Positions 35,349 to 47,311 of a stretch of 64,000 bases of DNA are shown here, piece by piece. Numbering within the stretch: the first letter of the stretch is position 1; each line of letters begins with the position of its first letter. Both the position numbers and the translations under genes were made by a program. The stretch is from Candidatus Aldehydirespirator sp. (lineage in GTDB: Bacteria > Actinomycetota > Acidimicrobiia > Acidimicrobiales > Aldehydirespiratoraceae). The stretch is taken from NCBI GenBank assembly GCA_965203575.1, contig OZ241894.1, positions 3,724,322 to 3,788,321 on the forward strand, written 5' to 3'. Below the pieces are notes generated by a model. The model saw only the letters and a list, made by a program, of their open reading frames with translations. It made no database searches and was not told the origin of the DNA.

Positions 35349-36155
35349 TCACTCCGTGTCTAGGTGGGCGAACAGGTCGCGGGTGCGGAACGGGGCGGAC
35401 ATGAACCGGGCGAACGCCTTGCGGCGGGTCAGCCACACCACCCTGGCCCCGGACTTGTCGGCGGCCAGCATGTGGTCGGCCAGCCACGGGGTGACGGTGT
35501 GGACCTCGTCGGCCAGGATGTTGAAGATCCGCTTGGCCCTCTCGAACTCCTCCGACGTGATGTCGTAGTCGCCGGTGAGCAGCTCGGTAACCACGATGCC
35601 GGGCGACACCGTGCACACCTGCACCGGGGTACCGGCGGTGTCCTTGCGCAGGGCCCGCTGGAGGTAGCGCACCGCCCGCTTGGTGGAGCCGTAGGCGGCC
35701 ATGCCGGGCTGGGTGGCCCCGTCGGACCCGAAGCCCTCGGTGTTCCAGAGCTGCCCGTGGCCCTGCCGCAGCATGTTGGCGATGGCGGTCTTGCTGGCCA
35801 GCAGCGCCCCGGTGAGGTTGGTGTCAACCAGGGCGGCGAGATCCCGGTCGCGCTGCTCCCACAGCGGCAGGCGCTCGATGCTGACACCCGCGTTGTTGAT
35901 CCACACGTCGACCCCGCCGAAGGCCTCGGCCGCGGCGTCCCACAGCGCCTGGAGCTGGTCGGGGTCGGTGATGTCGCAGGCCGCGCCGCAGACCCTCGAC
36001 TCGCCGTAGTACTGGCCCAGCTCGGCCACCACCGCCTCGACCTGGCCGGCCGAGCGCCCGCTGACGGCCACCCGGCACCGCCGCTTGAGGAACTCCCGGG
36101 CCAGCCCGTTGCCGATCCCCCTCGTGCTGCCGGTGATGACGATTCGGTTTCCCAT
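35349..36155 (-). CDS. short-chain dehydrogenase/reductase, NOL/NYC1 (chlorophyll b reductase)-like by recollection
   Basis: 268 aa. VITGSTRGIGNGLAREFL, VDVWINNAG and YGSTKRAV (YxxxK). It has an unusual GFGSDGATQPGMAAYG segment and a C-terminal extension RIFNILADEVHTVTPWLADHM...WLTRRKAFARFMS. Confidence 0.8.
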   Translation of the reverse strand: MGNRIVITGSTRGIGNGLAREFLKRRCRVAVSGRSAGQVEAVVAELGQYYGESRVCGAACDITDPDQLQALWDAAAEAFGGVDVWINNAGVSIERLPLWEQRDRDLAALVDTNLTGALLASKTAIANMLRQGHGQLWNTEGFGSDGATQPGMAAYGSTKRAVRYLQRALRKDTAGTPVQVCTVSPGIVVTELLTGDYDITSEEFERAKRIFNILADEVHTVTPWLADHMLAADKSGARVVWLTRRKAFARFMSAPFRTRDLFAHLDTE

Positions 36156-36164
36156 GTCGGCTCC

Positions 36165-37118
36165 CTAGCGCCGGTCCCAGTGGGCCACCAGCTCGTGGGC
36201 GACCAGTTTCTCCAGCCCGGTGCCGCCCGCCGACCCCACGCTGGCCGCCACAAACGCGGCGATCAGGTCTCCCAGCAGGCCCCGCACCGCCGGGTCGGTG
36301 TCCGGGTCTGGCTCCAGGAAGGCGCGGCCGCTGGTGGTGTCCACCGGATGGCAGACGGCGAAATGGCCGGCGCCGGCCAGCTCGACCAGCCACGAGTCCC
36401 CCCGCCGGTGCCCGACGGCCTCCTCGAAGGTGCGCCGGACCGGGTCGTGGGCTCCGTCGCCCCGCCCGTAGCGGTCGCGGCTGGCCGAGATGACCCCGTC
36501 GCGGTCGCCGCCGATCAGCATCACCGGCACCTTGGCCGGGATGGCCACCACCGCGGCCTCGCCGTGTCCAAGAGAGGTGGCCGTCATCGTGTGGCCCCCG
36601 TAGGCGAACGCGGCCCGCAGGCCCAGCACCCAGCCGGGGTCGCTGCTGTGCAGCGCGACGGTCCCCCCGGCGGAGTGGCCGCCCACCACCACCCGGTCGA
36701 GGTCGAGCCTCCCCGCCGGTGGTGCGCCGTCGGCCTCGCTGATGCCGGCCAGGCGGTCGAGGAGCGACCCGAGCGCGGTGGCCACCGGGCGGGTGCCGAC
36801 GTTGGCGGGGGTCAGCGCGTCGAGGTCGAGGCCGGGGGTGATGCCCTGGCCCGCGGGCCCCAGCGACCCGATGGCAGCGTAGGTCACCACGCACACACCG
36901 GTCGGCACGAGCCGGTGGGCCAGCCAGCGGTAGCTGTCGGGAGCCACGTTGATGCCGGGCATCATGATCACCAGCGGCCACGGCTCTCCCGCCGCGGCGG
37001 GAACCTGCCCGGTCAGGCGGGCCTCCTCCAGCCGGAGCCGGTCGCCGGGGTAGTACAGCGTGGCTGTGGCGGGGTCCCCGCCGGCGTCAAAGGAGAAGTG
37101 CCAGCCCCGGACGATCAT
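36165..37118 (-). CDS. alpha/beta hydrolase (dienelactone-hydrolase/chlorophyllase-like layout)
   Basis: 317 aa. WPLVIMMPGINVAPDSYRWLAHRLVPTGVCVV and the nucleophile elbow VVGGHSAGGTVAL. It lies 9 nt upstream of the SDR gene. Confidence 0.7.
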   Translation of the reverse strand: MIVRGWHFSFDAGGDPATATLYYPGDRLRLEEARLTGQVPAAAGEPWPLVIMMPGINVAPDSYRWLAHRLVPTGVCVVTYAAIGSLGPAGQGITPGLDLDALTPANVGTRPVATALGSLLDRLAGISEADGAPPAGRLDLDRVVVGGHSAGGTVALHSSDPGWVLGLRAAFAYGGHTMTATSLGHGEAAVVAIPAKVPVMLIGGDRDGVISASRDRYGRGDGAHDPVRRTFEEAVGHRRGDSWLVELAGAGHFAVCHPVDTTSGRAFLEPDPDTDPAVRGLLGDLIAAFVAASVGSAGGTGLEKLVAHELVAHWDRR

Positions 37119-37138
37119 GGGCTGGCTGGGCCATGACG

Positions 37139-37163
37139 GTTCCGCTGAGAGGAACGCGGTTTC
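37139..37163. promoter_or_regulatory. operator-like motif, site E: GTTCC-gctgaga-GGAAC-gcg-GTTTC
   Basis: Read directly. It sits in the 68-bp divergent intergenic region between the starts at 37118 (-) and 37187 (+). Confidence 0.6.
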
Positions 37164-37186
37164 ACAACCCGATACTACGTTCTACC

Positions 37187-37651
37187 ATGCGGGTCATGAG
37201 CCACCCGAAGAACTACGGCGAGCCCTCGCCCCGGCCATACCAGTGCTTCATGGGCCACTGGGAGGGGCTGTGCAAGAGCTTCAGCCCCGCAGGCGACTTC
37301 CTGGAGTCAAGCGCCGTCCACATGGACGTGTACTGGCTCGACGACCGCACCTGGCACCTCCACGAGCACTTCGAGAACCTCTACGGCGTCGGCGAGACGG
37401 TGTACGACACCCCGATCAGGGTGGACGGCAAGCAGTGCTTCGCCGAGAGCGACCAGCTCACCCTCGAGGGCGCCGAGCTGACGCCCTACAACTACGTGTT
37501 CACCATCGACAGCCGGGTGAGCAACACCATCGTCTACAACAACCACTACTTCTTCGACCCCGACACCCGGCGCATCATCACCCACAAGGTGCGCGACGGC
37601 AGGACCAACCTGTTCCAGATCCAGGACTTCGCCCGGGTGCAGCGGCCATGA
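37187..37651 (+). CDS. GxWxG-motif protein, probable lipocalin/nitrobindin-like beta-barrel (single domain)
   Basis: Start placed at MRVMSHPKNYG. CFMGHWEGLCKSFSPAGDFLESSAVHMDVYW is the N-terminal GxWxG block, followed by alternating beta-strand-like sequence. It is a paralogue of the domains in 38463, 39386 and 40067. Confidence 0.5.
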   Translation: MRVMSHPKNYGEPSPRPYQCFMGHWEGLCKSFSPAGDFLESSAVHMDVYWLDDRTWHLHEHFENLYGVGETVYDTPIRVDGKQCFAESDQLTLEGAELTPYNYVFTIDSRVSNTIVYNNHYFFDPDTRRIITHKVRDGRTNLFQIQDFARVQRP

Positions 37652-38466
37652 TCGTCCAGCCGCCCGCCAGCGGCGCCGCCGACGCCGCTCACTTCGTGAT
37701 CGCCATGCACCAGCACACCGCCTTCGCGGGCTCGCTGGCCGCCGACTTCGGCAATGACGCCTTCGCCGGCCTGGAGCCGGCCGAGCCCATGCAGTACATC
37801 GTCGACCACCACGACGCGGGCTGGGCCGACCTCGACGCCCGCGCCCCCCAGAACCCCGACACCGGGCTCCCCTACAACCTGACGGCCACCCCGCTGGCCC
37901 AGATCGTGGCCACCTCGGCCGGGTCGCCGCAGTTCAACGAGGCCCACCATCCCTTCAGCGGCGTCATCTCGTCGATGCACACCTACGGGCTGTACTGCGG
38001 CCGCTACGGGCTCAGCGACAAGATCTTCCTGGACATGATCGGTGACGACATGCGCCCCGAGGTGGACGCCATGCTGGAGGCCGAGGAGAGCCGCCAGCAC
38101 CGGCTCAAGCAGGACCTGGCCGGCGACGACGCGGGCCTCGCCGACGAGGACTTCATCTTCAACGCCTACAAGCAGCTCCAGTTCTTCGACACGCTGTCGC
38201 TGTACTTCCACCTGGTGCCGGAGGGCGAGCGGGGCGCCGCGGAGTTCCACAACGTGCCCCGGGCGGTCGGCGACGACGTGACCGTCTCGGTGATCGAGCG
38301 TCCCGGCGCGGTGTACGAGGTCGATCCCTACCCGTTCGCCACCGATGGGCTGGAAGTGGCCACCGAGGGCCGGTACCTGGCTCCCCAGCCGCCCGGCACC
38401 GACCTCGGCCCGGTGCTGGCGGCCACGCCGGTGGACACCCAGACGGTGCATCTCGTGCGGGCGTGA
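37648..38466 (+). CDS. DUF3891-like protein (HDxGW motif), function unknown
   Basis: 272 aa starting at an ATGA overlap. AMHQHTAFAGSLA...IVDHHDAGWADLD. I recall the HD.GW block from the DUF3891 family; this was not verified. Confidence 0.45.
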   Translation: MIVQPPASGAADAAHFVIAMHQHTAFAGSLAADFGNDAFAGLEPAEPMQYIVDHHDAGWADLDARAPQNPDTGLPYNLTATPLAQIVATSAGSPQFNEAHHPFSGVISSMHTYGLYCGRYGLSDKIFLDMIGDDMRPEVDAMLEAEESRQHRLKQDLAGDDAGLADEDFIFNAYKQLQFFDTLSLYFHLVPEGERGAAEFHNVPRAVGDDVTVSVIERPGAVYEVDPYPFATDGLEVATEGRYLAPQPPGTDLGPVLAATPVDTQTVHLVRA

Positions 38467-39389
38467 ACGGAGGCTCCTTCTCCCAGGGGCTCGGCGAGTG
38501 GATCGGATCGGCCGAGGTCTACGACGGCAGCGGCCGCTTCGCCGGTATGGGCCGCGACATCCGCACGGTGCAGGCCACCGACCCTGCCGGCCTGGTCACG
38601 GTGGAGGTGACCTTCGAGGGGCCGTTCTCGCTGTCGGGGATGTACACCATCGCCGATCACGGCTCGCACCGGACCTACGAGGGCCCGCTGAACCTCGGCT
38701 TCGCCGAGGTGCTGGGGGACGGCCTGATCGCGGCCCGCAACTACTGGCCGAGCCTGGGCCTCTCGCAGCGGTTCTTCCTGATGGTGCTGCCCGGCGGCGA
38801 CCACCAGCTGTCGCTGGCGCTGCTGAGCCGGGGCGACCAGCTCCGCTGGACGGTCGTCGGCGAGTACCGGCGCCGGCCCCAAGCCTCGCAGGACCCGCCG
38901 CCTGCGGTGGAGCCGATCGACCCCGCGGCGGTGAGCGACGACCCGACCGCGGGCCGGGGCCGGCTCCTGCTGCTGCGCCCGGGCCGATGGTCGGGCCGGC
39001 TGCACCGCCTCGGCGCCGGGCTGGAACCGTCCGGCACGGTCGACTACGTCGAGACGGTCGCCGCCTCGGCAGACCGCCCTGCCGAGCAAGCCAGCGAGGC
39101 GCTGGCAGTGGAGTTGTCGGGGCTCGACTTCGCCCCGGATGCGTCGTTCGTGCTGGAGTCCGACGGGTGGACGGCGTGGACCCCGGCCGGCGATCTCGCC
39201 GGCAGCGCGGCCCTGAGCGGCGGCCGGGGCCTGAGCGGGCACTTCCACAACGATCCGGCCGGATGCCGGGTGTGGCGCCGGGAGGTCGCCTCGCTGGACG
39301 GCTCGACCAAGGCCGTCCTGCACATCTGGTACCGGGGTGAGGAGCGGCTCGGCGCGCTCTACGGCACCCTGGCCTTCGATCCGCCATGA
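38463..39389 (+). CDS. tandem GxWxG beta-barrel-like protein (two domains)
   Basis: 308 aa with a GTGA start overlap. The domains start at LGEWIGSAEVYDGSG and PGRWSGRLHRLG. Confidence 0.5.
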   Translation: MNGGSFSQGLGEWIGSAEVYDGSGRFAGMGRDIRTVQATDPAGLVTVEVTFEGPFSLSGMYTIADHGSHRTYEGPLNLGFAEVLGDGLIAARNYWPSLGLSQRFFLMVLPGGDHQLSLALLSRGDQLRWTVVGEYRRRPQASQDPPPAVEPIDPAAVSDDPTAGRGRLLLLRPGRWSGRLHRLGAGLEPSGTVDYVETVAASADRPAEQASEALAVELSGLDFAPDASFVLESDGWTAWTPAGDLAGSAALSGGRGLSGHFHNDPAGCRVWRREVASLDGSTKAVLHIWYRGEERLGALYGTLAFDPP

Positions 39390-40060
39390 GCAAGGGCAGC
39401 GGCACGGGCCGCGATCCGTTCTCCGGCGCCTGGCTGGTCACCGAGCACGTCTACGACCCTGACGGCACCTACCGGGGTTCGGTGGCCCAGCGCCGCCGCG
39501 TCGAGCCGGCGCGCGACGGCAGGCTCCGGGTGGTCCAGCACTGCGAGCCGTCGCCGGACCTGGACGGGCACCCCATGGCGGCCTTCGCCGGGGACTGGAT
39601 CTTCGAACTCGAGGTGGACGGACCCCGGCGCCGGTACCTCGGCCCCGACGTGATGGGCGCGGCGACCGAGTGGCAGCCCGGGACCATGACCGGGCGGGGA
39701 ATCTGGCCCCGGTTCGGTTACGAGTTCGAGTCCTACAGCGTCCTGGTCGCTTCCGACCGCCAGCTCACCGGCGGCTTCTTCTCGCTGGCCGGGCGGTCGG
39801 TGGCCGACATCGTCGGGGTGGCCGTCCCGGAGTCGTCCGGGGTCGAGCCCCGCCTCGACCTGTCGGCGCCGGCGCCCCCGGCGGACGACCGCTGGCCGCT
39901 GCGCCGGACGGTCGGACCCCTCCTGGCGGCGGTCGGTCAGCCGTCGCCGCTGCGCCGACGGCGGCTGTGGGCGATGCGTGACCCGATCAGCGGCTCCGGC
40001 TTCGAACTGGTCGAGGACGCCAGCGCGCACGGCCGCGTCGTGTCGGTGAACGTGGGCTGA
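39386..40060 (+). CDS. GxWxG-like beta-barrel-family protein
   Basis: 224 aa with an ATGA start overlap. FSGAWLVTEHVYDPDGTYRG and a second block FAGDWIFELEVDG. Confidence 0.45.
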   Translation: MSKGSGTGRDPFSGAWLVTEHVYDPDGTYRGSVAQRRRVEPARDGRLRVVQHCEPSPDLDGHPMAAFAGDWIFELEVDGPRRRYLGPDVMGAATEWQPGTMTGRGIWPRFGYEFESYSVLVASDRQLTGGFFSLAGRSVADIVGVAVPESSGVEPRLDLSAPAPPADDRWPLRRTVGPLLAAVGQPSPLRRRRLWAMRDPISGSGFELVEDASAHGRVVSVNVG

Positions 40061-40066
40061 CGCTCC

Positions 40067-41008
40067 CTAGCCGTCCGGCGACCAGGTGAGGGCGCCGAAG
40101 ACGACGTCGGTCATGCGGTCGCCGTCGTACAGCTTCCAGACGGCTGCCAGGGTGTAGTCGCGGTCGATTATGAACTCGCGGCCCTTGACCTTGAAGGCCT
40201 CGCGGGCGTGGTGCTGGGTGGTGTACAGGGCCCGTCCGTAGGCCAGAGCGTTTCCCCACAGATCGGGGCCGTCATAGGTGTGGCGGTTGCCGTTTGACCG
40301 GGTGCGCACGTACGTGAATGACCGGTCGATCTGCCCGGACATCTCCCACCGCTGGGTGGCCCGCACCAGGTCGATCGGGTCGTGGCGGATGCGGACATCG
40401 ACTCGGCCCCGTGGCTGCTGGTCGGCCCCGAACACCTCACAGGAGCCGGCCCACTCGCCGCCTCTGCGGTCGGGCAGGGTGTGGGGCCAGGCGGCCATCT
40501 GCTGCTCGGTCTCCAGGTGGGCGTCGATGCGGGCCTTGGTCTCGGGGTTGGTGTCGTAGTCGTGGGCGTTCAGGTACACCCCGTTGAACACCGAGAAGAT
40601 GGTGGGCCCCTCGTACAGCAGCGACGAGTACACCTGGGTCACGCCGTCGGCCAGGATCTGGTTCATGGTGTTGAGGTCGGCCCGCCAGCCCGGCGCGTAG
40701 TAGTGCGAGTCCACCAGCGAGCCGTAGGGGTGACCGGCGCCGTAGAAGTCGGGGCCCCGGTAGATCCGGTTGTCGCCCTGGTCGTCCACCCCGAACTCGA
40801 AGTCCTTGATCTCGAAGCGGTTGCGCAGCGGGCCGGTGTTCATGAAGTTGCACTGCATCCAGTAGGTGACCCTGCCGTCGGCGAACACGCTGGCCCGGCT
40901 GACCTTGTTGAACCCGGTGTGGCTGCCGTCGGCGTCGAACACCGACGGCAGGCCGTACCACTCACCGGTGATGCGCTGCTGCCACTCGGAGGCTTGGGAC
41001 TCGGTCAT
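40067..41008 (-). CDS. tandem GxWxG beta-barrel-like protein (two domains)
   Basis: 313 aa. ITGEWYGLPSVFDADGSH and RGGEWAGSCEVFGADQQ. It is the last gene of the Rieske operon. Confidence 0.5.
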   Translation of the reverse strand: MTESQASEWQQRITGEWYGLPSVFDADGSHTGFNKVSRASVFADGRVTYWMQCNFMNTGPLRNRFEIKDFEFGVDDQGDNRIYRGPDFYGAGHPYGSLVDSHYYAPGWRADLNTMNQILADGVTQVYSSLLYEGPTIFSVFNGVYLNAHDYDTNPETKARIDAHLETEQQMAAWPHTLPDRRGGEWAGSCEVFGADQQPRGRVDVRIRHDPIDLVRATQRWEMSGQIDRSFTYVRTRSNGNRHTYDGPDLWGNALAYGRALYTTQHHAREAFKVKGREFIIDRDYTLAAVWKLYDGDRMTDVVFGALTWSPDG

Positions 41009-41056
41009 GTCTGCCGCCGCTCGGAGGCTTCGGTCTTGCTCATGGGGGACTCCGTT

Positions 41057-41776
41057 CTAGGTGCGGGCCGCGGTCTTGAGGCTGTCGCGGATGCGGGCGC
41101 TCACGTCGGGGCCGAGCAGTTGGTCCACCCGGGCCCACACCGGGTCGACGTCGGGGTTGAACAGGGCGGCCCGGTGGCGGGCGTCCCGCTCGGCGAGCTG
41201 CTCGGCGGTGGTGCCGTCGAGCACGCCGTCGGGCACGCCGTCGACCACCAGGTCGAGCCAGTGGTCACGGTAGGCGGCCACCGTGCCGAACACCGCCCGG
41301 AAGCCGTCCTCGTCGGCCCGGTGGGCCAGCATCCACGCCGACATGAGTTGCCACTGGCGCCGCGACAGGTGGGCGGGGGTCAGCCCGTCTATCTCGGCGG
41401 CCTGGCTGTGGGCGTCGGTGAGCGGCACGAAGCAGTGGTCGATGTAGGCCAGGCTGGCTCCGGGGTCGACCCGGGGCATGAGGTCGAGGTGGAAGGCGTA
41501 GTGGGGCCCGGCCAGCACCGAGTCCACCGTGAAGTGGGGCACCGCGCTGTCGGGCGGGGTGAACGCGAAGCACATGTGGCTGTCGAGCCCGAAGGCCTCG
41601 ACGGTCATGGACACGTACACCAGGGCGGCCACCCCGTCGCGGGCCAGCACCCGGTGCACGCCCACCGGCGACCCGTCCATGGCCGAGGCCAGCGGCACGG
41701 ACTCGGCCTCCTCGAGCTCCAGCCGGGCCGCGATGGCCTCCACCGTGCCCAGGCACAGGTCGGCAGAAAGGCTCAT
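41057..41776 (-). CDS. RCCR/ferredoxin-dependent-bilin-reductase-like protein, paralogue 1
   Basis: 239 aa. The blocks HFTVDSVLAGPHYAFHLDLMPRVDPGASLAYIDHCFVPL and ERDARHRAALFNPDVDPVWARVDQLLGPDVSARIRDSL are collinear with paralogue 2 and with my recollection of plant RCCR. Confidence 0.45.
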   Translation of the reverse strand: MSLSADLCLGTVEAIAARLELEEAESVPLASAMDGSPVGVHRVLARDGVAALVYVSMTVEAFGLDSHMCFAFTPPDSAVPHFTVDSVLAGPHYAFHLDLMPRVDPGASLAYIDHCFVPLTDAHSQAAEIDGLTPAHLSRRQWQLMSAWMLAHRADEDGFRAVFGTVAAYRDHWLDLVVDGVPDGVLDGTTAEQLAERDARHRAALFNPDVDPVWARVDQLLGPDVSARIRDSLKTAART

Positions 41777-41822
41777 GCGCCCGCTCCGGTCACAATCGGC
41801 GGCCCGGGGGCCTGCCCGAGGC

Positions 41823-42974
41823 TCATGCGTCCGCTCCGGTGGCGGCCGATCCGACTGTGGGGAACACCCAGGCGCTGGCCATCTCGGGCTCGGCGGCCCG
41901 GGCCGGCGACGGGATCACCGCCGCGGCCCGCCTGGACTCCTCGTCGGTCGGGGCGGCCAGCCCCAGGCCCTTGTCCAGCTGCTCCTGGCGCCAGCGCCGG
42001 TAGGCCAGCTGGATGGAGTCGGACTTGACGTGCAGCTCGGCCGACAGGTCGAAGGGCAGCAGCTCGGGCCGCTGACCCTCCACGGTCGGCTGGTCCTCCC
42101 GGAAGATCTTGAGGGTGCGCTTGTGGGAGTCCTTGTCGGCCCAGCCCCCGGTGAAGAACGAGCGCATCATGCAGAACTTCGACACCGTGACGTGCTCGTC
42201 GAGGGGCACCGCGGCGGTGAACAGGCGCATGTCCCCCATCGGCAGGCGCACGATCAGCAGCGACACGTTGGGGGGATAGAAGCCGGTGGAGGTGCGCACC
42301 GGCGGGCGCTCCTTCTTGGCGATGAGCCGCCATATCCCCGACGGAAGGGGCGGCTTGAGATCGACGGTGGCGCTCACCGACGCCAGGTGGCCGTTGTGGC
42401 GGACCTCCTCGAGGTCGAAGTCCTGGATCTCCGGCTCGTCGCGGTTGCCGAACGACCCGGCGTGCACGAACGGGGTGTGGGCGATGTCGATGGCGTTCTC
42501 CAGCACCCGGTCGTAGTTGGCGTTCCAGGTGAACTCGCCCTGCACGGCCCGGAACCCCTCGGCCCGGGCCTCGGTGTGCAGCTCCATGCCGTACAGCTCC
42601 GGCAGCGGCGGCCGCTGCTCGGCGGCCAGGTCGCCCAGGAACACCCACACGAAGCCGTAGCGCTCCACGCAGGGGTAGGTGTCGATGCGGGCCTTGCGCG
42701 GGATGGGCAGATCGGGACGGTTGGCCGGGATCTCCACGCACGCGCCCTCGGTGTCGTAGCGCCAGCCGTGATACGGGCACCGCACGCAGTCGCCGACCAC
42801 CTCGCCGCCCGCCAGCGACCCGCCCCGGTGCACGCACAGGTCGGACTGGGCGTTGACGGTGCCGTTGGGGCTGCGCCACAGCACTAGGTCGTGGCCGTGG
42901 ACCTTCACCTGAAGGGGCCGGTCGCCGACCTGCGAGCCGAATTCGACGGCGTACCAGTGGTTCTTGATGAGCAT
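41823..42974 (-). CDS. Rieske [2Fe-2S] non-haem-iron oxygenase alpha subunit (PAO/KshA-type, single-component alpha3 class)
   Basis: 383 aa. The Rieske motif is CVHRGGSLAGGEVVGDCVRCPYHGW. The iron motif is ENAIDIAHTPFVHAGSF (DxxHxxxxH). A GGGAGG RBS precedes the start. Confidence 0.85.
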   Translation of the reverse strand: MLIKNHWYAVEFGSQVGDRPLQVKVHGHDLVLWRSPNGTVNAQSDLCVHRGGSLAGGEVVGDCVRCPYHGWRYDTEGACVEIPANRPDLPIPRKARIDTYPCVERYGFVWVFLGDLAAEQRPPLPELYGMELHTEARAEGFRAVQGEFTWNANYDRVLENAIDIAHTPFVHAGSFGNRDEPEIQDFDLEEVRHNGHLASVSATVDLKPPLPSGIWRLIAKKERPPVRTSTGFYPPNVSLLIVRLPMGDMRLFTAAVPLDEHVTVSKFCMMRSFFTGGWADKDSHKRTLKIFREDQPTVEGQRPELLPFDLSAELHVKSDSIQLAYRRWRQEQLDKGLGLAAPTDEESRRAAAVIPSPARAAEPEMASAWVFPTVGSAATGADA

Positions 42975-42995
42975 GGGGAGCCTCCCTGTGTGCTC

Positions 42996-43823
42996 TCAGC
43001 TCGGTCGGGGCAGCACCCGGTCGCCGCCCCAGAGGGCCCGCACCAGGCGGTCGCACATCTCGGGGCCGAAGAACCGCACCCCCATCACGTTGGCCGGGTC
43101 GCGCTCGGCGATGGTGCGCCGCCGGGCCAGGTCGTCGGCGGCCAGGCGCTCGCGGCGCTCATACCGCACGGGCTCGGCCTCGTCCACCCAGCGGAGCCAC
43201 TGGTCGACCCGGCGGTGGGCCAGCCCGCGCACCTGCTCGAGCCGGGCCTCGTCGTGGGTGATCCCGGGGGTGGTGAAGCACACCGCGGTGTGGCTGAGGG
43301 CCTGGCGGATGTAGAGCTCCCGCGATGTGAACGTCGACAGCCCCGGGTCGGCTCGCAGCTCCAGGAACTCCTCGTTGAGCGGCTCCCAGTACTTGTCGAG
43401 CGCTTCCGTGTCGAGCATGAGGTCCGAGCGGGGGTTGTAGTCGATGTAGAACCAGAGGTCGGGCAGGGTGCCCCAGGCGATCCCGAGGTGGGGCACGTCG
43501 ATGTGGGGGCCGAGCCAGGCGGTGACGTGCATGTTGGTGAACCCCAGCGGCGGGTTGCCGATCCACGAGTGGATCAGCCAGTCGATCTCCGGTCCGGCGT
43601 AGGCCGCCAGCCGCCCCGCGGGGTACTCGGCCTCGCCCCGGTACGACTCCAGGTCGTCGGTGCTGGGGTCGCGGGCCAGCTCGAAGCGGGACTGGAGCTT
43701 GTCCATGAGCTCGCCGGTGATCGACCACAGCCGGTCGAACGTCGCGGTGGCGTCGGTCGGACCGGCCTGATCAAAAATGTCCTGGACGCCCTTCAACGTC
43801 TCGCGCATGGATTCTCCGGCCAT
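42996..43823 (-). CDS. RCCR/ferredoxin-dependent-bilin-reductase-like protein, paralogue 2
   Basis: Only the C-terminal 275 aa of track ORF 42996-44696 look coding (start MAGESMRETLKGV). The blocks EIDWLIHSWIG, LWFYIDYNPRSDLMLDTEALDKYW, FTSRELYIRQALSHTAV and ERRERLAADDLARRRTIAERDPANVMGVRFFGPEMCDRLV parallel my recollection of Arabidopsis RCCR. Confidence 0.5.
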   Translation of the reverse strand: MAGESMRETLKGVQDIFDQAGPTDATATFDRLWSITGELMDKLQSRFELARDPSTDDLESYRGEAEYPAGRLAAYAGPEIDWLIHSWIGNPPLGFTNMHVTAWLGPHIDVPHLGIAWGTLPDLWFYIDYNPRSDLMLDTEALDKYWEPLNEEFLELRADPGLSTFTSRELYIRQALSHTAVCFTTPGITHDEARLEQVRGLAHRRVDQWLRWVDEAEPVRYERRERLAADDLARRRTIAERDPANVMGVRFFGPEMCDRLVRALWGGDRVLPRPS

Positions 43824-43935: not shown

Positions 43936-44754
43936 ATGACCCGCACCTCCCTGTACGTTCCCGGCGACACCCCGGAGCGCTTCGACAAGGCCCTGGCCTC
44001 GGGAGCCGACGCGGTGATCTGCGACCTGGAGGACGCGGTGGCCGAGGCGGCCAAGCCGGCCGCCCGGGAGGCGGTGGCGGGCTGGCTGCGAGCCAACTCA
44101 GGCGCGCCGGTATGGGTGCGGGTCAACAACCGTCCCGACCTGCTCGACGTCGACGCCGCCATGGTCCGGTCGCTGGTGGCCGACGGCGTCGGCCTGGCCG
44201 GGGTGGTCGTGCCCAAGGCCGACCCCGACGCTTGTGCGACCGACTTCGGCGGATGCCCGGTCATGGCGCTCATCGAGTCGGCCGAGGGCGTGTTCAAGGT
44301 GTACGAGGTCGCCTCGGTTCCCGGGGTGGTACGCCTGGCCCTGGGCGAGGCCGACCTGGCCGCCGACATGGGCATGATGCCGTCGCCCGACGGGTTGGAG
44401 ATGTGGCCGATCCGCACCCGGGTGGTGGTGGCTTCGGTGGGGGTCGGGCTGATCGCGCCGTGCGGGCCGGTGTTCACCGACCTCGACGACACCGAGGGGC
44501 TGGCGGCCACCAGCGAGTCGCTGCGTCGCCTCGGCTTCGGCGGGCGGTCGGTGATCCACCCCAAGCAGGTGGCCGCGGTCAACGCGGCCTTCACCCCGAC
44601 GGCGGAGGAGGTCGCCCATGCTGAGGCGGTGATGGCCGAGCTGGAGGCGGCCACCGACGAGGGACGGGGAGTGGCCGTGCTGGACGGCAAGTTCATCGAC
44701 GCCGCGGTGATACGCCAGGCCCGCTCGGTGCTGGCCCGGGTGCCCGACCGCTAG
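43936..44754 (+). CDS. HpcH/HpaI aldolase-citrate lyase beta (CitE)-like acyl-CoA lyase
   Basis: 272 aa. RTSLYVPGDTPERFDKALASGADAVICDLEDAV is the canonical CitE-family N-terminus. Confidence 0.8.
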   Translation: MTRTSLYVPGDTPERFDKALASGADAVICDLEDAVAEAAKPAAREAVAGWLRANSGAPVWVRVNNRPDLLDVDAAMVRSLVADGVGLAGVVVPKADPDACATDFGGCPVMALIESAEGVFKVYEVASVPGVVRLALGEADLAADMGMMPSPDGLEMWPIRTRVVVASVGVGLIAPCGPVFTDLDDTEGLAATSESLRRLGFGGRSVIHPKQVAAVNAAFTPTAEEVAHAEAVMAELEAATDEGRGVAVLDGKFIDAAVIRQARSVLARVPDR

Positions 44755-44880: not shown

Positions 44881-46503
44881 CTACCTGCGAGGCCTCTGGG
44901 CAGCCGGCCGGGACAGCACGGCGGCGGCGGCCAGGGACCGGCCGCCGACCAGGTCGGTGTCCCTGGACACTTCCCGGTGGGCGGCCCGGCCGGGATGCAG
45001 GGCGCCCACCAGCAGCCCGTCGCCCGGGGCGGCCCGCACGCACTCCGGCGTGTTGATGGTGCCGTCGAAGGGGCTCGAGCGGCGGGGGTTCCACAGCGAG
45101 TCGGCCGGGGGGTCGAGCAGCATGGTGGCCGCCGGCGGCCCCGGCGGCGCGCAGGCGGCCAGGCTGACCCGGTTCTCGGCGGCCCGTTCCACCAACCCCA
45201 GATCGCACTCCCAGCGGTGCTCAGGCTGCCAGCACACCGCCACCAGGCTGGCGCCGGCCACCGCGGCCAGCCGGATGGTCTCGGGATGGCGGTGGTCGTC
45301 GCCCACGATCACGGCCATGTCGCCGAACGGTGTCCGGTAGAGGCTGATCCCCTCCCCCAGCCGGGTGACGTCCGGATAACGGTCGTAGCGGTGGATCTGG
45401 GCCTGCTCGTGGACCAGCCCCCCGGCGGTCCACACCTGGCCCACGTGCTGTCCGTCGCGCTCGGCGGTGGTGACCACCAGTACCCCGGCGGGGATGCCGG
45501 CCGGTGCCGGGGTCAGCTCGGGCAGCACCACCAGCGAGGCCCCCGCATCGAAGGCCTTCCCGATCAGCTCAGGATCATGCTGCGCCCCGGGGACGCACGC
45601 GGCCCGCACTTCAGAGACCTCCGTCGCTGCCGGAGTGGCCGTGCCGCTCGCGGCCAGCGGGCTGTACACCCGGGGCCTGCGACCCTCCAGCCGCCTAGGC
45701 CGGCCCCGAGACAGGTCGACGTCGGCCACCACCACCGCCTCGCCCGCCGGCGGGGCCTTGACCACTACCGTGCCGTCGGGGTCGACGATCTGGCTCTCTC
45801 CCGCGCCCTCGAGGGCCTCGGCGGGAACGCCGAGCGCCTCGGCGAACTCCGCGGCCCGCCCGGCCGGAAGCAGCGAGCCGACCTTGTTGGCCGCCGCCAC
45901 CCACACCCCGTTCTCGGCGGCCCGCACCGGAACGTGCAGGCTGGCCTCGTCGCGGGCGAAGGAGTTGAGGCTGTTGCACAGCAGCCGGGCGCCGCTCACC
46001 GCCAGGGCGCGGGGCGTCTCGAAGGTCACGCCGTCCATGCACGCGTACAGCCCGACCGGCCCGAACGCGGTGCCGGCCACCGCGCTGGGCCTCTCCCCCG
46101 CGCTCAGATAGGCCCGCTCGTTGCCCATGAGCATCTGCTTGTCGGCGGTTGCGGTGATCCGGCCGTCGGGGCCGATCAGCACGCTGGTGACGGTCACCCG
46201 GCCACCGGCGCGGGGCACGGTCACCGCCAGGGCCGCGTACATGCGGTGGTGGGCGGCCCGCCGGGCCAGCGTGCCCAGCCAGTCGCCGTCCAGTGGCACG
46301 GCCACCGCCCGGCAATGCTCCGCGCTGTCGTACACCGACAGGTGGTTGCAGAACTCCGGCAGCACGACCAGTTCGGCGCCGCCGGCCGCAGCCTCATCGA
46401 GCATCCGCACGCACGCGGCCAGATTGGCGTCGACATCGGTCCCCGCCTCGAACTGCGCAGCGGCCACCCGCAAGTGGTCCCGCACCCCGTCGGTGTCAGG
46501 CAA
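44881..46503 (-). CDS. tandem carbon-nitrogen hydrolase (nitrilase superfamily) protein
   Basis: 540 aa. LRVAAAQFEAG...LVVLPEF...GLYACMDG is the first CN-hydrolase domain, and a second, more degenerate one follows (ASLVVLPEL...). The TTG start overlaps the iclR stop; a GTG 6 codons downstream is an alternative start. Confidence 0.7.
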   Translation of the reverse strand: MPDTDGVRDHLRVAAAQFEAGTDVDANLAACVRMLDEAAAGGAELVVLPEFCNHLSVYDSAEHCRAVAVPLDGDWLGTLARRAAHHRMYAALAVTVPRAGGRVTVTSVLIGPDGRITATADKQMLMGNERAYLSAGERPSAVAGTAFGPVGLYACMDGVTFETPRALAVSGARLLCNSLNSFARDEASLHVPVRAAENGVWVAAANKVGSLLPAGRAAEFAEALGVPAEALEGAGESQIVDPDGTVVVKAPPAGEAVVVADVDLSRGRPRRLEGRRPRVYSPLAASGTATPAATEVSEVRAACVPGAQHDPELIGKAFDAGASLVVLPELTPAPAGIPAGVLVVTTAERDGQHVGQVWTAGGLVHEQAQIHRYDRYPDVTRLGEGISLYRTPFGDMAVIVGDDHRHPETIRLAAVAGASLVAVCWQPEHRWECDLGLVERAAENRVSLAACAPPGPPAATMLLDPPADSLWNPRRSSPFDGTINTPECVRAAPGDGLLVGALHPGRAAHREVSRDTDLVGGRSLAAAAVLSRPAAQRPRR

Positions 46504-47311
46504 GGGGCTGGGCGCCGAGCTTGGCCGAGAGCGCCCGGGTGGCCTCCACCACGGCGGCGGAGGCGGGGCCGATCTTGCTGCGGAACCGGTAGATCGGCCC
46601 GCACACGCTGACGACGGCCACCGGCTCGCCGTTGTGGTCGAGGATCGGGGCGGCCACCGACCCGGCGTCGTGCTGCCGCTCGCCGAAGGACAGCGCGAAC
46701 CCTTGGGCGCGGATGCCCTCCAGTTCGGCTCGCAGCTCGTCGACCGAGACGACGGTGGCGTCGGTCAGGGCGTCCAGCGGGTTGTCGGCCAGGTAGCGGT
46801 CGATGGCGGCGTCGGTGAGCCAGGCCAGGAACGCCTTGGACGACGCTCCGGCGTGCAGCGGGAACGACCCCCCGATGGGCACGGTCATCTTCACCTCGCG
46901 CGGCGGGGTGATCTGGTCGACGTACACCCGGCGGTCGCCGTAGCGGACCGACAGGGTGGCGGTCTCGTCGGTCTCGGCGCTGAGTCGCCGCATCTCGTCG
47001 ATGGCCAGGGTCCGCACATCGAGCTGGTCGCGGAAGGCGGCGGCCAGCTCCATCACCGCGGGCCCGAGCCCGTACCGGCGGCTGCGGGGATCGGCGATCA
47101 GCAGGCTGCGCTCGCACAGCGACGCCAGGATCCGGTGCACCACCGCCTTGGACACGCCGAGCTCCCGCGAGATCTCGGTCACTCCCAGCGTGCCCGTCGC
47201 CCGCGAGAACAGGAACAGCACCTCGACCGCCCTGTCGATGGCGGCCACGCTGCGGCCCGAGCCGGAAGCCTGGTCCGGTTCTGCCGACGGTTCGCTCACG
47301 GGAGTGTCCAT
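46496..47311 (-). CDS. IclR-family transcriptional regulator
   Basis: Only the C-terminal 271 aa of track ORF 46496-48478 look coding (start MDTPVSEP). SVAAIDRAVEVLFLFSRATGTLGVTEISRELGVSKAVVHRILASL is followed by an IclR effector domain. Confidence 0.85.
   Translation of the reverse strand: MDTPVSEPSAEPDQASGSGRSVAAIDRAVEVLFLFSRATGTLGVTEISRELGVSKAVVHRILASLCERSLLIADPRSRRYGLGPAVMELAAAFRDQLDVRTLAIDEMRRLSAETDETATLSVRYGDRRVYVDQITPPREVKMTVPIGGSFPLHAGASSKAFLAWLTDAAIDRYLADNPLDALTDATVVSVDELRAELEGIRAQGFALSFGERQHDAGSVAAPILDHNGEPVAVVSVCGPIYRFRSKIGPASAAVVEATRALSAKLGAQPLA

What the first reader, a model, noticed from the sequence alone, without database searches (positions are those of the whole stretch)
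35349..43823. Bacterial gene cluster resembling the plant PAO/phyllobilin chlorophyll-breakdown enzyme set
Four enzyme types that in plants act consecutively on chlorophyll are encoded within 8.5 kb.
(i) The SDR at 35349-36155 has blocks ITGSTRGIGxxLAREFL, VDVWINNAG, GFGSDGATQPGMAAYGSTKRAV and VSPGIVVTELL, plus a C-terminal extension (FNILADE...). As far as I can recall the plant sequences, these match the NOL/NYC1 chlorophyll b reductase clade rather than a generic SDR.
(ii) The alpha/beta hydrolase at 36165-37118 (GGHSAGG) has a chlorophyllase/dienelactone-hydrolase-like layout.
(iii) The Rieske/mononuclear-iron oxygenase at 41823-42974 belongs to the class that contains pheophorbide a oxygenase.
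(iv) It is flanked by two paralogues (41057-41776 and 42996-43823). Their blocks IDWLIHSWIG, WFYIDYNPRSDLMLD..LDKYW and ERRERLAADDLARRRTIAERDP...FFGPE line up with my memory of Arabidopsis RCCR blocks IDFVIGSWIH, LILDLPHRKDLVLNPDYLKEYY and ERRDKSFRRKSIEDDLDLQFPRMFGEE.
I know of no characterised bacterial pathway that opens the chlorin ring this way, so this could be an undescribed tetrapyrrole (chlorophyll, pheophorbide or bilin) catabolic system in a heterotroph.
Basis: partly seen in the sequence, partly recalled or inferred. Interest (0 to 1): 0.85.

Follow-up and report, generated by a model that had tools for sequence, protein, structure and literature searches.

The report
Bacterial chlorophyll-catabolite-type breakdown gene island
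A marine actinobacterium carries a conserved gene cluster in which two relatives of the plant enzyme that detoxifies opened chlorophyll rings flank an oxygenase, next to genes for digesting pyrrole fragments; this probably encodes an uncharacterised bacterial route for breaking down chlorophyll-type pigments, though no activity has been shown.

Summary
All five genes are at the stated coordinates, and the quoted motifs, including the recalled Arabidopsis RCCR blocks, check out. 42996-43808(-) passes Pfam RCC_reductase, and its family profile hits Arabidopsis RCCR structures (E 1e-16). 41057-41776(-) is a remote paralogue (hhalign 98%) whose model matches RCCR best (TM 0.74). The SDR is 41% identical over its full length to an algal protein annotated as putative chlorophyll(ide) b reductase, but bacterial members of that subfamily also sit in unrelated contexts. 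The hydrolase is only weakly chlorophyllase/PETase-like. The Rieske protein has a VanA_C domain, not a PaO domain, so it is not a PAO-family member.

In 67 of 68 related loci with full flanks (Acidimicrobiia, filamentous actinomycetes) the order RCCR1-Rieske-RCCR2-double-barrel protein is kept, usually with a CN-hydrolase. The unit sits in a ~33 kb catabolic island (22.4-55.2 kb) with an importer, flavin monooxygenases, cyclic-amide hydrolases, amidases, CoA-transferases and lyases.

Best reading: import, oxygenation and reduction of a chlorophyll-derived tetrapyrrole, then mineralisation of pyrrole fragments. This rests on homology and synteny only. A 2026 preprint already predicted prokaryotic CLH/PPH/PAO/RCCR homologues genome-wide but did not show ring opening or describe this operon. 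Verdict: partly supported; a new variant of a known kind.

The parts
22444..23244 (+). AMDase / maleate-isomerase-superfamily protein (lower pathway)
   Evidence: Pfam Amdase, E 2.7e-16. 53% identical to the Amdase gene that ends the Micromonospora operon.
23245..24519 (+). FAD-dependent aromatic-type monooxygenase
   Evidence: Pfam FAD_binding_3, E 2.3e-50. Orthologues are present in the actinomycete clusters and in L084.
24632..25456 (+). Surface-anchored neocarzinostatin-fold protein: signal peptide, PE-rich linker and C-terminal TM anchor. Putative ligand-capture protein.
   Evidence: Weak Pfam Neocarzinostat match. Sequence features read directly. A Neocarzinostat-domain gene also sits beside the ABC transporter in Micromonospora.
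25548..26852 (+). Acyl-CoA-dehydrogenase-fold protein. Function inferred: oxygenase component of a two-component flavin monooxygenase.
   Evidence: Pfam Acyl-CoA_dh_N, _M and _2. In the actinomycete clusters it is adjacent to a flavin reductase. 62% identical orthologue in L084.
27142..28725 (+). Lipoprotein solute-binding protein (start uncertain)
   Evidence: Weak Peripla_BP_6 match. Lipobox-like LLLAAATLAAAC.
28745..33491 (+). Two fused permease/ATPase genes of a Liv-type ABC importer (28745-30742 and 30753-33491)
   Evidence: Pfam BPD_transp_2, ABC_tran and BCA_ABC_TP_C. An orthologous transporter flanks the operon in Micromonospora and Actinoplanes.
35349..36155 (-). SDR of the chlorophyll(ide) b reductase-like subfamily
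   Evidence: Pfam adh_short. 41% identity over 271 aa, E 3e-51, to a Chlorella protein annotated as putative chlorophyll(ide) b reductase.
36165..37118 (-). Alpha/beta serine hydrolase (esterase) with invariant Ser149/Asp207/His252
   Evidence: Alignment A4. Weak PETase, Chlorophyllase and DLH matches across orthologues.
37133..37651 (+). 172-aa protein of unknown family; first gene of the plus-strand operon
   Evidence: No Pfam or NCBIfam hit. Conserved in 40/68 loci.
37648..38466 (+). DUF3891 protein, His-rich, function unknown
   Evidence: Pfam DUF3891, E 2e-32. Start checked. No PDB or literature hit.
38463..39389 (+). 308-aa full-length paralogue of the double-barrel protein
   Evidence: BLASTP E 4e-10 and hhalign 100% to the 313-aa family.
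39386..40060 (+). 224-aa protein whose N-terminal half is related to the barrel family
   Evidence: BLASTP E 2e-6 and hhalign 93% to the 308-aa family.
40067..41008 (-). 313-aa tandem beta-barrel protein (DUF3598/BFA1-like fold); last gene of the core operon
   Evidence: AF2 model pLDDT 93.6. Foldseek best hits BFA1 5yvf and Nostoc DUF3598 2o62, E ~1e-9, TM 0.57-0.67. No Pfam match. Present in 67/68 loci.
41057..41776 (-). RCCR2: divergent RCCR/FDBR-fold reductase paralogue
   Evidence: BLASTP 22% identity, E 3e-4, to RCCR1. hhalign 98%, E 1.6e-13. AF2 pLDDT 95.4. Foldseek top hits all AtRCCR, TM ~0.74.
41823..42974 (-). Rieske [2Fe-2S] / mononuclear-iron oxygenase of the VanA-like class with no beta-subunit gene
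   Evidence: Pfam Rieske and VanA_C. No PaO domain. Nearest PDB entries SxtDIOX/SxtT, NdmA, DdmC.
42996..43808 (-). RCCR1: member of Pfam family RCC_reductase
   Evidence: PF06405, 52.6 bits against cutoff 24.9. Profile hits AtRCCR 3agb at E 1.2e-16 over the full length.
43936..44754 (+). CitE/RipC-like acyl-CoA C-C lyase
   Evidence: Pfam HpcH_HpaI. NCBIfam RipC_Ccl 161 bits, below cutoff.
44881..46503 (-). Long (540-aa) CN-hydrolase (amidase/nitrilase superfamily)
   Evidence: Pfam CN_hydrolase, E 2.5e-44. Directly upstream of RCCR1 in the actinomycete operons and present in 64/68 loci.
46496..47341 (-). IclR-type regulator (start approximate)
   Evidence: Pfam HTH_IclR and IclR_C. An IclR gene is also present at the actinomycete clusters.
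47369..52312 (+). Four lower-pathway genes: family III CoA-transferase (47369-48580), cyclase/arylformamidase-family hydrolase (48577-49401), MmgE/PrpD-family protein (49413-50855), hydantoinase/allantoinase-type cyclic amidohydrolase (50852-52312)
   Evidence: Pfam and NCBIfam. In L059 these genes run on the same strand directly into RCCR1.
52393..55218 (.). HMG-CoA-lyase-family gene (minus strand, 52393 to about 53320), second family III CoA-transferase (plus strand, about 53350-54541), isochorismatase-family amidase (plus strand, 54538-55218)
   Evidence: Pfam. NCBIfam HMG-CoA lyase subfamily 344 bits against cutoff 246. Orthologues present in Thermomonospora and L084.

Best explanation
The finding is the 'upper' module of a ~33 kb, IclR-regulated catabolic island (about 22.4-55.2 kb) for an imported chlorophyll-derived tetrapyrrole, such as pheophorbide or pheophytin or an already-opened phyllobilin/RCC-type catabolite.

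Proposed mechanism (inferred except where stated):
1. A surface-anchored neocarzinostatin-fold protein, a lipoprotein binding protein and a Liv-type ABC importer take up the pigment.
2. The Ser-Asp-His esterase removes an ester (phytyl or the C13(2) methyl ester).
3. The CBR-like SDR reduces a formyl or keto substituent with NAD(P)H.
4. The Rieske monooxygenase oxygenates the tetrapyrrole using O2 and ferredoxin-derived electrons. It either opens the macrocycle as PAO does or hydroxylates a linear catabolite as TIC55 does.
5. The two RCCR-family proteins encoded on either side of it carry out ferredoxin-dependent two-electron reductions of bridge or vinyl double bonds. This breaks conjugation and removes phototoxicity.
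6. The DUF3598-fold double-barrel paralogues bind or hand over the hydrophobic intermediates.
7. Flavin monooxygenases fragment the chain. Cyclic amidohydrolase, cyclase-type hydrolase, CN-hydrolase and isochorismatase-type amidase open the lactam or imide rings and release NH3.
8. An AMDase/maleate-isomerase-like enzyme, CoA-transferases, a PrpD-like enzyme and CitE/HMG-CoA-type lyases convert the substituted maleate-type acids to central metabolites.

Shown: family and fold assignments and conserved synteny. Inferred: the substrate and every reaction.
For: - RCCR1 passes Pfam RCC_reductase. Its profile hits AtRCCR structures at E 1.2e-16, better than any FDBR.
- RCCR2 is a true paralogue by profile and by fold.
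- The residue aligned with AtRCCR Asp291 is invariant in RCCR1 (ERDPAN) and aligns with the invariant Asp211 of RCCR2.
- The solved proteins sharing this fold (RCCR, FDBRs, coproporphyrinogen oxidase) all act on tetrapyrroles (PMC10151467).
- The Rieske gene lies between the two reductase genes in 67/68 loci. This fits the sequential PAO then RCCR reaction described for plants (PMC2716323).
- The SDR is 41% identical over its full length to an annotated algal chlorophyll(ide) b reductase.
- The esterase family shows weak Chlorophyllase/PETase similarity and an intact triad.
- Importer, IclR regulator, amidases, CoA-transferases and lyases mark the island as catabolic. In L059, L039 and L041 the lower-pathway genes are contiguous with RCCR1.
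- Carriers are sponge- or coral-associated Acidimicrobiia and filamentous actinomycete genera. From general knowledge, both kinds of habitat are rich in chlorophyll detritus.
- An independent structure-based survey reached a similar prediction for Actinomycetota.
Against: - No biochemical evidence exists for any step.
- The Rieske protein lacks the PaO domain. Its nearest solved relatives hydroxylate or demethylate small molecules.
- AtRCCR Glu154 aligns to an invariant Ala in RCCR1, so the chemistry may differ.
- The hydrolase is not a chlorophyllase-family member at threshold.
- CBR-like SDRs are common in bacteria in unrelated contexts. L084 has the SDR, CN-hydrolase and lower pathway without RCCR, Rieske or barrel genes, so the SDR may act on a small fragment.
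- The window contains no Mg-dechelatase (SGR) homologue, ferredoxin or reductase gene.
- The lower pathway would fit other N-heterocycles equally well.
Confidence: 0.5

Rival explanations
1. The island degrades heme- or phycobiliprotein-derived bilins (biliverdin, phycocyanobilin, phycoerythrobilin). The two RCCR-family proteins act as FDBR-like bilin reductases, the Rieske enzyme hydroxylates or cleaves the already linear chain, and there is no chlorin ring opening.
For: RCCR1's profile also hits PebB at E 8.8e-9. RCCR2's model matches HY2, PebA, PebB and PcyA nearly as well as RCCR, with TM 0.65-0.76. The Rieske protein is not PAO-type. The closest carriers are sponge- or coral-associated Acidimicrobiia; from general knowledge, those hosts often harbour cyanobacteria. 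Heterotrophic bacteria with FDBR relatives are documented (PMC10151467).
Against: For both paralogues RCCR, not an FDBR, is the best match. An esterase and a CBR-like SDR have no obvious substrate on bilins with free propionates and no formyl group. The loci contain no heme oxygenase or bilin lyase. From general knowledge, soil actinomycete carriers probably meet few phycobilins.
Confidence: 0.22
2. The island degrades a non-tetrapyrrole N-heterocycle, for example a pyrrole or indole alkaloid or a cyclic imide. The FDBR-fold proteins and the Rieske enzyme have been recruited to a different substrate, and the similarities to chlorophyll enzymes are only family-level.
For: The lower pathway (FAD and two-component monooxygenases, cyclase-type hydrolase, hydantoinase-type amidohydrolase, isochorismatase amidase, AMDase-like enzyme) is generic for heterocycle breakdown. 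L084 shows it working without RCCR or Rieske genes. The Rieske protein's nearest solved relatives act on small alkaloids. From general knowledge, sponges are rich in pyrrole alkaloids.
Against: The solved structures that match the RCCR2 model at E<=0.01, apart from two chains of chloroplast Ycf2/Orf2971-FtsHi motor complexes, are tetrapyrrole enzymes. Two paralogues of this fold are strictly co-conserved with the Rieske gene. The carriers live in very different habitats, which argues for a ubiquitous substrate.
Confidence: 0.15
3. The upper module mainly detoxifies. It removes phototoxic chlorophyll catabolites taken up from a host or from prey and is not a nutritional pathway. The adjacent lower-pathway genes serve a separate C5-dicarboxylate or imide metabolism.
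For: Plant RCCR converts the phototoxic catabolite RCC into pFCC (PMC2716323). The lower module occurs on its own in L084.
Against: A dedicated high-affinity importer and an IclR regulator are present. Lower-pathway genes are contiguous and co-oriented with RCCR1 in L059. The CN-hydrolase is directly upstream of RCCR1 in the same operon in actinomycetes.
Confidence: 0.08

Closest known systems
Plant PAO/RCCR step of the PAO/phyllobilin chlorophyll-breakdown pathway (Arabidopsis PAO At3g44880, RCCR/ACD2 At4g37000)
   Same: A Rieske-type mononuclear-iron oxygenase is paired with an RCCR-family protein. RCCR1 meets the Pfam RCC_reductase threshold and aligns over the full length with AtRCCR, and the Asp291 equivalent is conserved. 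The set also contains an esterase and a CBR-like SDR.
   Different: The Rieske protein carries VanA_C rather than PaO and has no C-terminal CxxC motif (read from the sequence). There are two divergent RCCR paralogues instead of one. The residue aligned with Glu154 is Ala. There is no SGR. Extra DUF3598-fold and DUF3891 proteins are present. The unit is embedded with an importer and a full mineralisation pathway, whereas plants (general knowledge) store the catabolites. The hosts are non-photosynthetic.
Predicted prokaryotic chlorophyll a degradation sets (SH-CLH/PPH/PAO/RCCR) of Aliyu et al., bioRxiv 10.64898/2026.03.19.712979
   Same: The same idea: heterotrophic bacteria carry structural homologues of plant chlorophyll catabolic enzymes. 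Actinomycetota are the largest group of RCCR-type genomes. In Shewanella acanthi the hits lie within about 11 kb.
   Different: The preprint is a genome-level presence/absence survey and does not mention operons, synteny, Acidimicrobiia or sponges. It does not describe the RCCR1-Rieske-RCCR2-barrel unit, the second paralogue, the CBR-like SDR or the lower pathway. Its experiments show only Chl a to pheophytin and pheophorbide conversion, not ring opening. Whether the Shewanella cluster is orthologous to this one was not tested.
Ferredoxin-dependent bilin reductases (PcyA, PebA/B, PebS, HY2) and pre-PcyA clusters of heterotrophic bacteria (PMC10151467)
   Same: Same fold, a conserved C-terminal acidic residue, and occurrence in non-photosynthetic bacteria within gene clusters.
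   Different: Those clusters are biosynthetic (heme oxygenase, globins, V4R/Fe-S proteins) and produce bilin chromophores. This island is catabolic and its sequences are closer to RCCR than to any FDBR.
Maleamate-type lower pathways for N-heterocycles (Pseudomonas nic cluster) and cyclic-imide metabolism; both comparisons rest on general knowledge
   Same: A flavin monooxygenase is combined with a ring-opening hydrolase, an isochorismatase-family amidase and an Asp/Glu-racemase-superfamily (AMDase/maleate isomerase-like) enzyme. A hydantoinase-type cyclic amidohydrolase is paired with a half-amidase.
   Different: No NCBIfam equivalog threshold is met. The extra CoA-transferases and the CitE, HMG-CoA-lyase and PrpD-like enzymes suggest alkyl-substituted dicarboxylates rather than plain maleate.
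DUF3598 / BFA1 double beta-barrel proteins (PDB 2o62 from Nostoc punctiforme; 5yvf from Arabidopsis chloroplast)
   Same: A tandem lipocalin-like barrel architecture (Foldseek E ~1e-9, TM 0.57-0.67).
   Different: No significant sequence match to the Pfam DUF3598 models. The family has three or four paralogues inside a catabolic operon. The function of both the known and the new proteins as ligand binders is unproven.

Membership tests
RCC_reductase (Pfam PF06405) / FDBR superfamily | Sequence match to the family model above the curated threshold | tested here: met
   RCCR1 (42996-43823) scores 52.6 bits against a cutoff of 24.9, E 4.9e-14. The precomputed Pfam assignment for all 120 listed homologues is PF06405. 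RCCR2 (41057-41776) has no Pfam hit but links to RCCR1 by hhalign at 98%, E 1.6e-13.
RCC_reductase (Pfam PF06405) / FDBR superfamily | FDBR-type alpha/beta/alpha sandwich fold, closest to RCCR | tested here: met
   RCCR2 model has pLDDT 95.4. Its top 8 Foldseek hits are all AtRCCR (TM 0.66-0.75, E down to 6e-11), followed by HY2, PebA, PebB, PcyA and PebS. RCCR1 was not modelled, but its profile aligns to residues 20-269 of the 276-residue 3agb chain.
RCC_reductase (Pfam PF06405) / FDBR superfamily | Proposed catalytic acids of AtRCCR (Glu154 and Asp291, recalled from Sugishima et al. 2010) | tested here: inconclusive
   In the HMM alignment, Asp291 aligns with the invariant Asp237 of RCCR1 (ERDPAN) and, through the pairwise alignment, with the invariant Asp211 of RCCR2. 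Glu154 aligns with the invariant Ala111 of RCCR1. At about 20% identity the register is uncertain.
RCC_reductase (Pfam PF06405) / FDBR superfamily | Ferredoxin-dependent reduction of RCC to pFCC | not testable with these tools
   Needs an enzyme assay.
Pheophorbide a oxygenase family (PAO/TIC55/PTC52) | Rieske CxH...CxxH motif and mononuclear-iron motif E/D-x3-D-x2-H-x4-H | tested here: met
   CVHRGG...CPYHGW and ENAIDIAHTPFVH are present in the translation. Pfam Rieske E 2.4e-22.
Pheophorbide a oxygenase family (PAO/TIC55/PTC52) | C-terminal PaO domain (PF08417) | tested here: not met
   Only VanA_C (93.7 bits) and a trace of KshA_C are found; no PaO match even at E<=10. The nearest solved relatives are SxtDIOX/SxtT, NdmA and DdmC.
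Chlorophyll(ide) b reductase NOL/NYC1 clade of SDRs | Classical SDR core plus clade-specific blocks and C-terminal extension; closer to CBR than to generic SDRs | tested here: inconclusive
   41% identity over 271 aa, E 3e-51, to a Chlorella protein annotated 'putative chlorophyll(ide) b reductase', covering the GSDG...AAYG.TK, SPG.V.T.LL and FNIL blocks. That protein ranks about 135th among 101,315 SDR representatives. The best PDB SDR covers only residues 2-194, E 6e-25. However, only one named CBR was recovered and its annotation is itself predicted. Bacterial members of the same subfamily sit in unrelated contexts. No tree was built.
Chlorophyllase (PF07224) / PETase (PF12740) esterases | Match to the family model at threshold | tested here: not met
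   The window protein scores PETase E 0.0058, 16.5 bits against a cutoff of 28. Among 14 orthologues, 12 give weak PETase hits and 8 give weak Chlorophyllase hits (best E 8.8e-7), alongside DLH, PAF-AH and generic hydrolase models.
Chlorophyllase (PF07224) / PETase (PF12740) esterases | Ser-Asp-His triad with a GxSxG elbow | tested here: met
   GHSAGG Ser149, Asp207 and His252 are invariant in 14 orthologues.
DUF3598 / BFA1 double-barrel proteins | Two tandem lipocalin-like beta-barrels | tested here: met
   AF2 pLDDT 93.6. Foldseek hits 5yvf and 2o62 at E 1e-9 to 1e-8, TM 0.5-0.67.
DUF3598 / BFA1 double-barrel proteins | Sequence match to Pfam DUF3598 models | tested here: not met
   Only 2 of 30 members give a DUF3598_N match, at E 0.18.

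The most novel reading that the evidence does not exclude
Hundreds of heterotrophic bacterial species, including cultured Micromonospora, Actinoplanes, Actinomadura, Streptomyces and Thermomonospora strains and sponge-symbiont Acidimicrobiia, carry a complete, self-contained pathway. It imports a chlorophyll-derived pigment and opens the chlorin macrocycle with a non-PAO Rieske oxygenase. Two RCCR-type reductases, assisted by a new family of double-barrel carrier proteins, then defuse the product. The pyrrole units are finally mineralised to central metabolites and ammonia. This would be the first defined microbial route for the ultimate fate of chlorophyll carbon and nitrogen.
Probability: 0.35. 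Interest if true: 0.88.

Novelty: new variant of a known kind. Interest (0 to 1): 0.7.

Why it matters
From general knowledge, on the order of a billion tonnes of chlorophyll are turned over each year. Plants only convert it to colourless phyllobilins, and what finally mineralises chlorins and phyllobilins in soil and sea is essentially unknown.

A single 2026 preprint predicts prokaryotic homologues of the plant enzymes but demonstrates only the steps before ring opening. The operon defined here (RCCR1-Rieske-RCCR2-double-barrel protein, with esterase, CBR-like SDR and CN-hydrolase) is compact and strictly conserved. It is present in culturable, genetically tractable actinomycetes, so the open question becomes directly testable.

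If confirmed, it would also:
- extend the RCCR branch of the FDBR superfamily into heterotrophs;
- assign a role to a protein family with no Pfam model and to DUF3891;
- suggest that sponge and coral symbionts dispose of phototoxic pigment catabolites for their hosts.

Tried and rejected
- Pfam and NCBIfam scans of the 172-, 224-, 308- and 313-aa proteins and of RCCR2 found nothing.
- A PDB sequence-profile search with the RCCR2 family found nothing even at E<=10. Only profile-profile comparison and fold comparison resolved it.
- A PDB search with the SDR returned only generic FabG-like SDRs and no chlorophyll b reductase structure.
- A PDB search with the hydrolase gave only insignificant cutinase/PETase hits.
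- DUF3891 has no PDB match and no literature.
- Looking up the 100%-identical RCCR1 protein to name the source genome failed. The nearest named genomes are Ca. Aldehydirespirator MAGs at 97-98% identity.
- No plasmid carries an RCCR1 relative.
- There are no Rfam or tRNA features in the window.
- I considered that the SDR/NOL similarity might prove a chlorophyll b-type substrate. I rejected that as diagnostic after finding CBR-like SDRs in unrelated contexts and in an RCCR-less variant cluster.
- I considered the iac (indole-3-acetate) and nic (nicotinate) clusters as explanations for the whole island. From general knowledge they share enzyme classes with the lower pathway only, and neither has FDBR-fold proteins.
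- The 227-aa gene after the SDR in actinomycetes is a membrane protein unrelated to the window's 224-aa protein.

Full report
**Observation**

The window is high-GC DNA (about 70%). For the last one, homologues are typically 270 aa, which fits a start at 43808. Every quoted motif is present.

**The two paralogues**

- The 42996 gene (RCCR1) passes Pfam RCC_reductase PF06405 at 52.6 bits against a cutoff of 24.9.
- A profile of 20 homologues (A1) hits Arabidopsis RCCR structures at E 1.2e-16 over almost the whole chain. PebB follows at 8.8e-9 and PebA at 0.14.
- The 41057 gene (RCCR2) has no Pfam, NCBIfam or PDB-profile hit. It is collinear with RCCR1 at 22% identity (E 3e-4).
- Profile-profile comparison of orthologue alignments gives 98% probability, E 1.6e-13, over 226 columns.
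- An AlphaFold2 model of RCCR2 (pLDDT 95.4) has AtRCCR as its eight best Foldseek matches (TM up to 0.75). HY2, PebA, PebB, PcyA and PebS follow.
- Both proteins are therefore RCCR-branch members of the FDBR fold.
- The residue aligned with AtRCCR Asp291 is invariant in both families. The residue aligned with Glu154 is an invariant Ala in RCCR1. The chemistry need not be identical.

**The other three enzymes**

- *Rieske protein.* It has both metal motifs and Pfam Rieske plus VanA_C, but no PaO domain even at E<=10. Its nearest solved relatives are SxtDIOX/SxtT, NdmA and DdmC. From general knowledge it belongs to the broad class of Rieske oxygenases that work without a beta subunit, which also contains PAO. 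It is not a PAO-family member.
- *SDR.* A search of 1.84 billion representatives returned 101,315 SDR hits. A Chlorella protein annotated 'putative chlorophyll(ide) b reductase' is among the best 150. It aligns at 41% identity over 271 residues, including the distinctive blocks and the C-terminal extension (E 3e-51). PDB SDRs match only the core. The NOL/NYC1 resemblance is therefore real at subfamily level. However, other bacterial members of this subfamily sit in unrelated neighbourhoods, so membership does not identify the substrate.
- *Hydrolase.* It has an invariant Ser149/Asp207/His252 triad. Its matches to PETase (PF12740), Chlorophyllase, DLH and PAF-AH are weak and sub-threshold.

**Context**

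The five genes are part of something larger.

- Between the SDR/hydrolase pair and the RCCR genes lies a plus-strand operon whose four genes each overlap the next by 4 nt: a 172-aa protein, DUF3891 (37648-38466), a 308-aa protein and a 224-aa protein.
- A 313-aa gene (40067-41008) ends the minus-strand RCCR1-Rieske-RCCR2 operon.
- The 313- and 308-aa proteins are full-length paralogues, and the 224-aa protein shares their N-terminal half.
- The 313-aa family has no Pfam model. It models confidently (pLDDT 93.6) as two tandem beta-barrels. The best structural matches are chloroplast BFA1 and a Nostoc DUF3598 protein.
- Upstream (22.4-33.5 kb): an AMDase/maleate-isomerase-superfamily gene, an FAD monooxygenase, a surface-anchored neocarzinostatin-fold protein, an ACAD-fold gene, a lipoprotein binding protein and a Liv-type ABC importer.
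- Downstream (43.9-55.2 kb): a CitE/RipC-like lyase, a long CN-hydrolase, an IclR regulator, two family III CoA-transferases, a cyclase/arylformamidase-family hydrolase, a PrpD-family protein, a hydantoinase/allantoinase-type cyclic amidohydrolase, an HMG-CoA-lyase-family protein and an isochorismatase-type amidase.
- This is the make-up of an import-and-mineralise pathway for a nitrogen heterocycle.

**Conservation**

- A scan of one genome per species found 331 stretches encoding RCCR1 relatives.
- The closest relatives (97-98% identity) are Ca. Aldehydirespirator MAGs. Ca. Poriferisocius and Poriferisodalis MAGs follow at 81-85%. All are Acidimicrobiales, and papers that mention these genera concern sponge or coral microbiomes.
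- The distant relatives (50-58% identity) include Micromonospora, Actinoplanes, Actinomadura, Streptomyces, Nonomuraea, Streptosporangium, Microtetraspora and Thermomonospora, plus an Anaerolineales MAG.
- In 67 of 68 loci with full 10-kb flanks, RCCR1, Rieske and RCCR2 are on one strand in that order. The 313-aa gene is present in 67/68 and the CN-hydrolase in 64/68.
- In filamentous actinomycetes the operon reads CN-hydrolase, RCCR1, hydrolase, Rieske, RCCR2, 313-aa, SDR, membrane protein, AMDase-like. It is flanked by an IclR gene, flavin reductase plus ACAD-fold gene, aldehyde dehydrogenases, an FAD monooxygenase, a CoA-transferase, an HMGL-like gene and, in some genomes, the same ABC importer and a neocarzinostatin-domain gene.
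- In L059 the CoA-transferase, cyclase, PrpD and amidohydrolase genes run straight into RCCR1.
- The upper and lower modules are thus linked, though separable. Locus L084 (an MFS-SDR fusion) has the SDR, CN-hydrolase and lower pathway but no RCCR, Rieske, barrel or hydrolase genes within 10 kb.

**Interpretation**

The solved proteins with this fold (RCCR, the FDBRs and coproporphyrinogen oxidase) all act on tetrapyrroles (PMC10151467). Two such proteins are locked to a Rieske oxygenase, which fits the sequential PAO then RCCR reaction described for plants (PMC2716323). The accompanying esterase and CBR-like SDR fit features that chlorophyll derivatives have (ester groups, formyl groups) and heme-derived bilins lack.

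I therefore favour a catabolic pathway for a chlorophyll-derived tetrapyrrole, with confidence about 0.5:
1. import of the pigment;
2. de-esterification and carbonyl reduction;
3. Rieske-catalysed oxygenation, either ring opening or hydroxylation of an already linear catabolite;
4. two ferredoxin-dependent reductions;
5. handling of intermediates by the barrel proteins;
6. oxidative fragmentation;
7. lactam and imide hydrolysis, deamidation and CoA-dependent cleavage.

Only the family and fold assignments and the synteny are shown. The substrate and every reaction are inferred.

The main rivals are:
- bilin (heme or phycobilin) catabolism, about 0.22;
- catabolism of a non-tetrapyrrole heterocycle, about 0.15;
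- a mainly detoxifying role, about 0.08.

Points against my reading are the non-PAO Rieske protein, the missing Glu154 equivalent, the absence of dechelatase and ferredoxin genes, the non-diagnostic SDR, and the RCCR-less variant cluster.

**Prior knowledge**

- RCCR homologues in Nostoc and Anabaena were noted in 2009. In Nostoc punctiforme two copies, Npun_R3277 and R3279, lie next to each other (PMC2716323).
- RCCR 'and related sequences' serve as the outgroup in FDBR trees (PMC10151467).
- A March 2026 preprint (bioRxiv 10.64898/2026.03.19.712979) used structure searches to predict CLH, PPH, PAO, RCCR and SGR homologues across prokaryotes. It found that Actinomycetota hold 33% of the 'complete RCCR-type' genomes. 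It showed Chl a to pheophytin and pheophorbide conversion in Shewanella acanthi.
- That preprint does not mention operons or synteny and shows no ring opening.
- No paper in the searched library characterises this operon, DUF3891 or the barrel family.

The general idea is therefore no longer new. The defined, strictly conserved operon with two RCCR paralogues, the new barrel family and the attached mineralisation pathway are new: a new variant of a known kind, of high but unproven interest (0.7).

Noticed in passing
window 40067-41008, 38463-39389, 39386-40060 (and possibly 37133-37651): A protein family with no Pfam model, present as three or four paralogues in one locus. The 313-aa member models with high confidence as two tandem lipocalin-like barrels resembling chloroplast BFA1 and Nostoc DUF3598. 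The members share an N-terminal G-x-W-x-G...D..G motif.
   Followed up: partly
window 37648-38466: A DUF3891 protein with conserved His clusters (HQH, HHDAGW, HHPF). It is translationally coupled to the barrel-protein genes. There is no structure or literature for it, so a metal-dependent role (for example dechelation or oxygenation) is pure speculation.
   Followed up: partly
window 24632-25456: A neocarzinostatin-fold domain with a signal peptide, a ~100-residue Pro/Glu-rich (PEPEPE) linker and a C-terminal membrane anchor. A Neocarzinostat-domain gene also sits next to the ABC importer in Micromonospora (L001 18486-19190). This may be a cell-surface chromophore-capture protein.
   Followed up: partly
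L084 10001-12175 (also P0243, P0260, P0276): MFS transporter-SDR fusion proteins (about 700 aa), some from Pyrinomonadaceae, whose SDR half is 42-48% identical to the window SDR. In L084 the fusion sits with orthologues of the CN-hydrolase and lower-pathway genes but without RCCR, Rieske or barrel genes, making it a modular variant of the island.
   Followed up: partly
window 33500-35340: A stretch with weak coding signal and lower GC between the ABC importer and the SDR. Its longest ORF (34063-35130, minus strand) encodes a signal/TM segment and a His-rich C-terminus (HWHGDDIYHIH). It has no Pfam hit and no counterpart in any of the 83 related loci.
   Followed up: no
window 16766-17641 and 17000-22400: An IS3-type transposase (rve plus HTH domains) and a lower-GC stretch (58-60%) lie immediately left of the island. 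This is compatible with horizontal acquisition of the island.
   Followed up: no
window 11089-14817: A very long minus-strand ORF (1242 aa) in a region of unusual composition, with only a weak C-terminal prokaryotic phospholipase A2 match. Several overlapping ORFs on the opposite strand also show high GC3, so the gene call is uncertain.
   Followed up: no
window 37119-37132: Only 14 bp separate the divergent start codons of the hydrolase (minus strand) and the 172-aa gene (plus strand). The promoters must overlap coding sequence, or one start is mis-called (alternative Met codons exist at residues 19 and 22 of the 172-aa protein).
   Followed up: no
literature: Nostoc punctiforme Npun_R3277 / Npun_R3279 (PMC2716323): Two RCCR-like genes are reported side by side, with locus tags two apart. 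This recalls the RCCR1-Rieske-RCCR2 arrangement here. The identity of the gene between them could not be checked.
   Followed up: no
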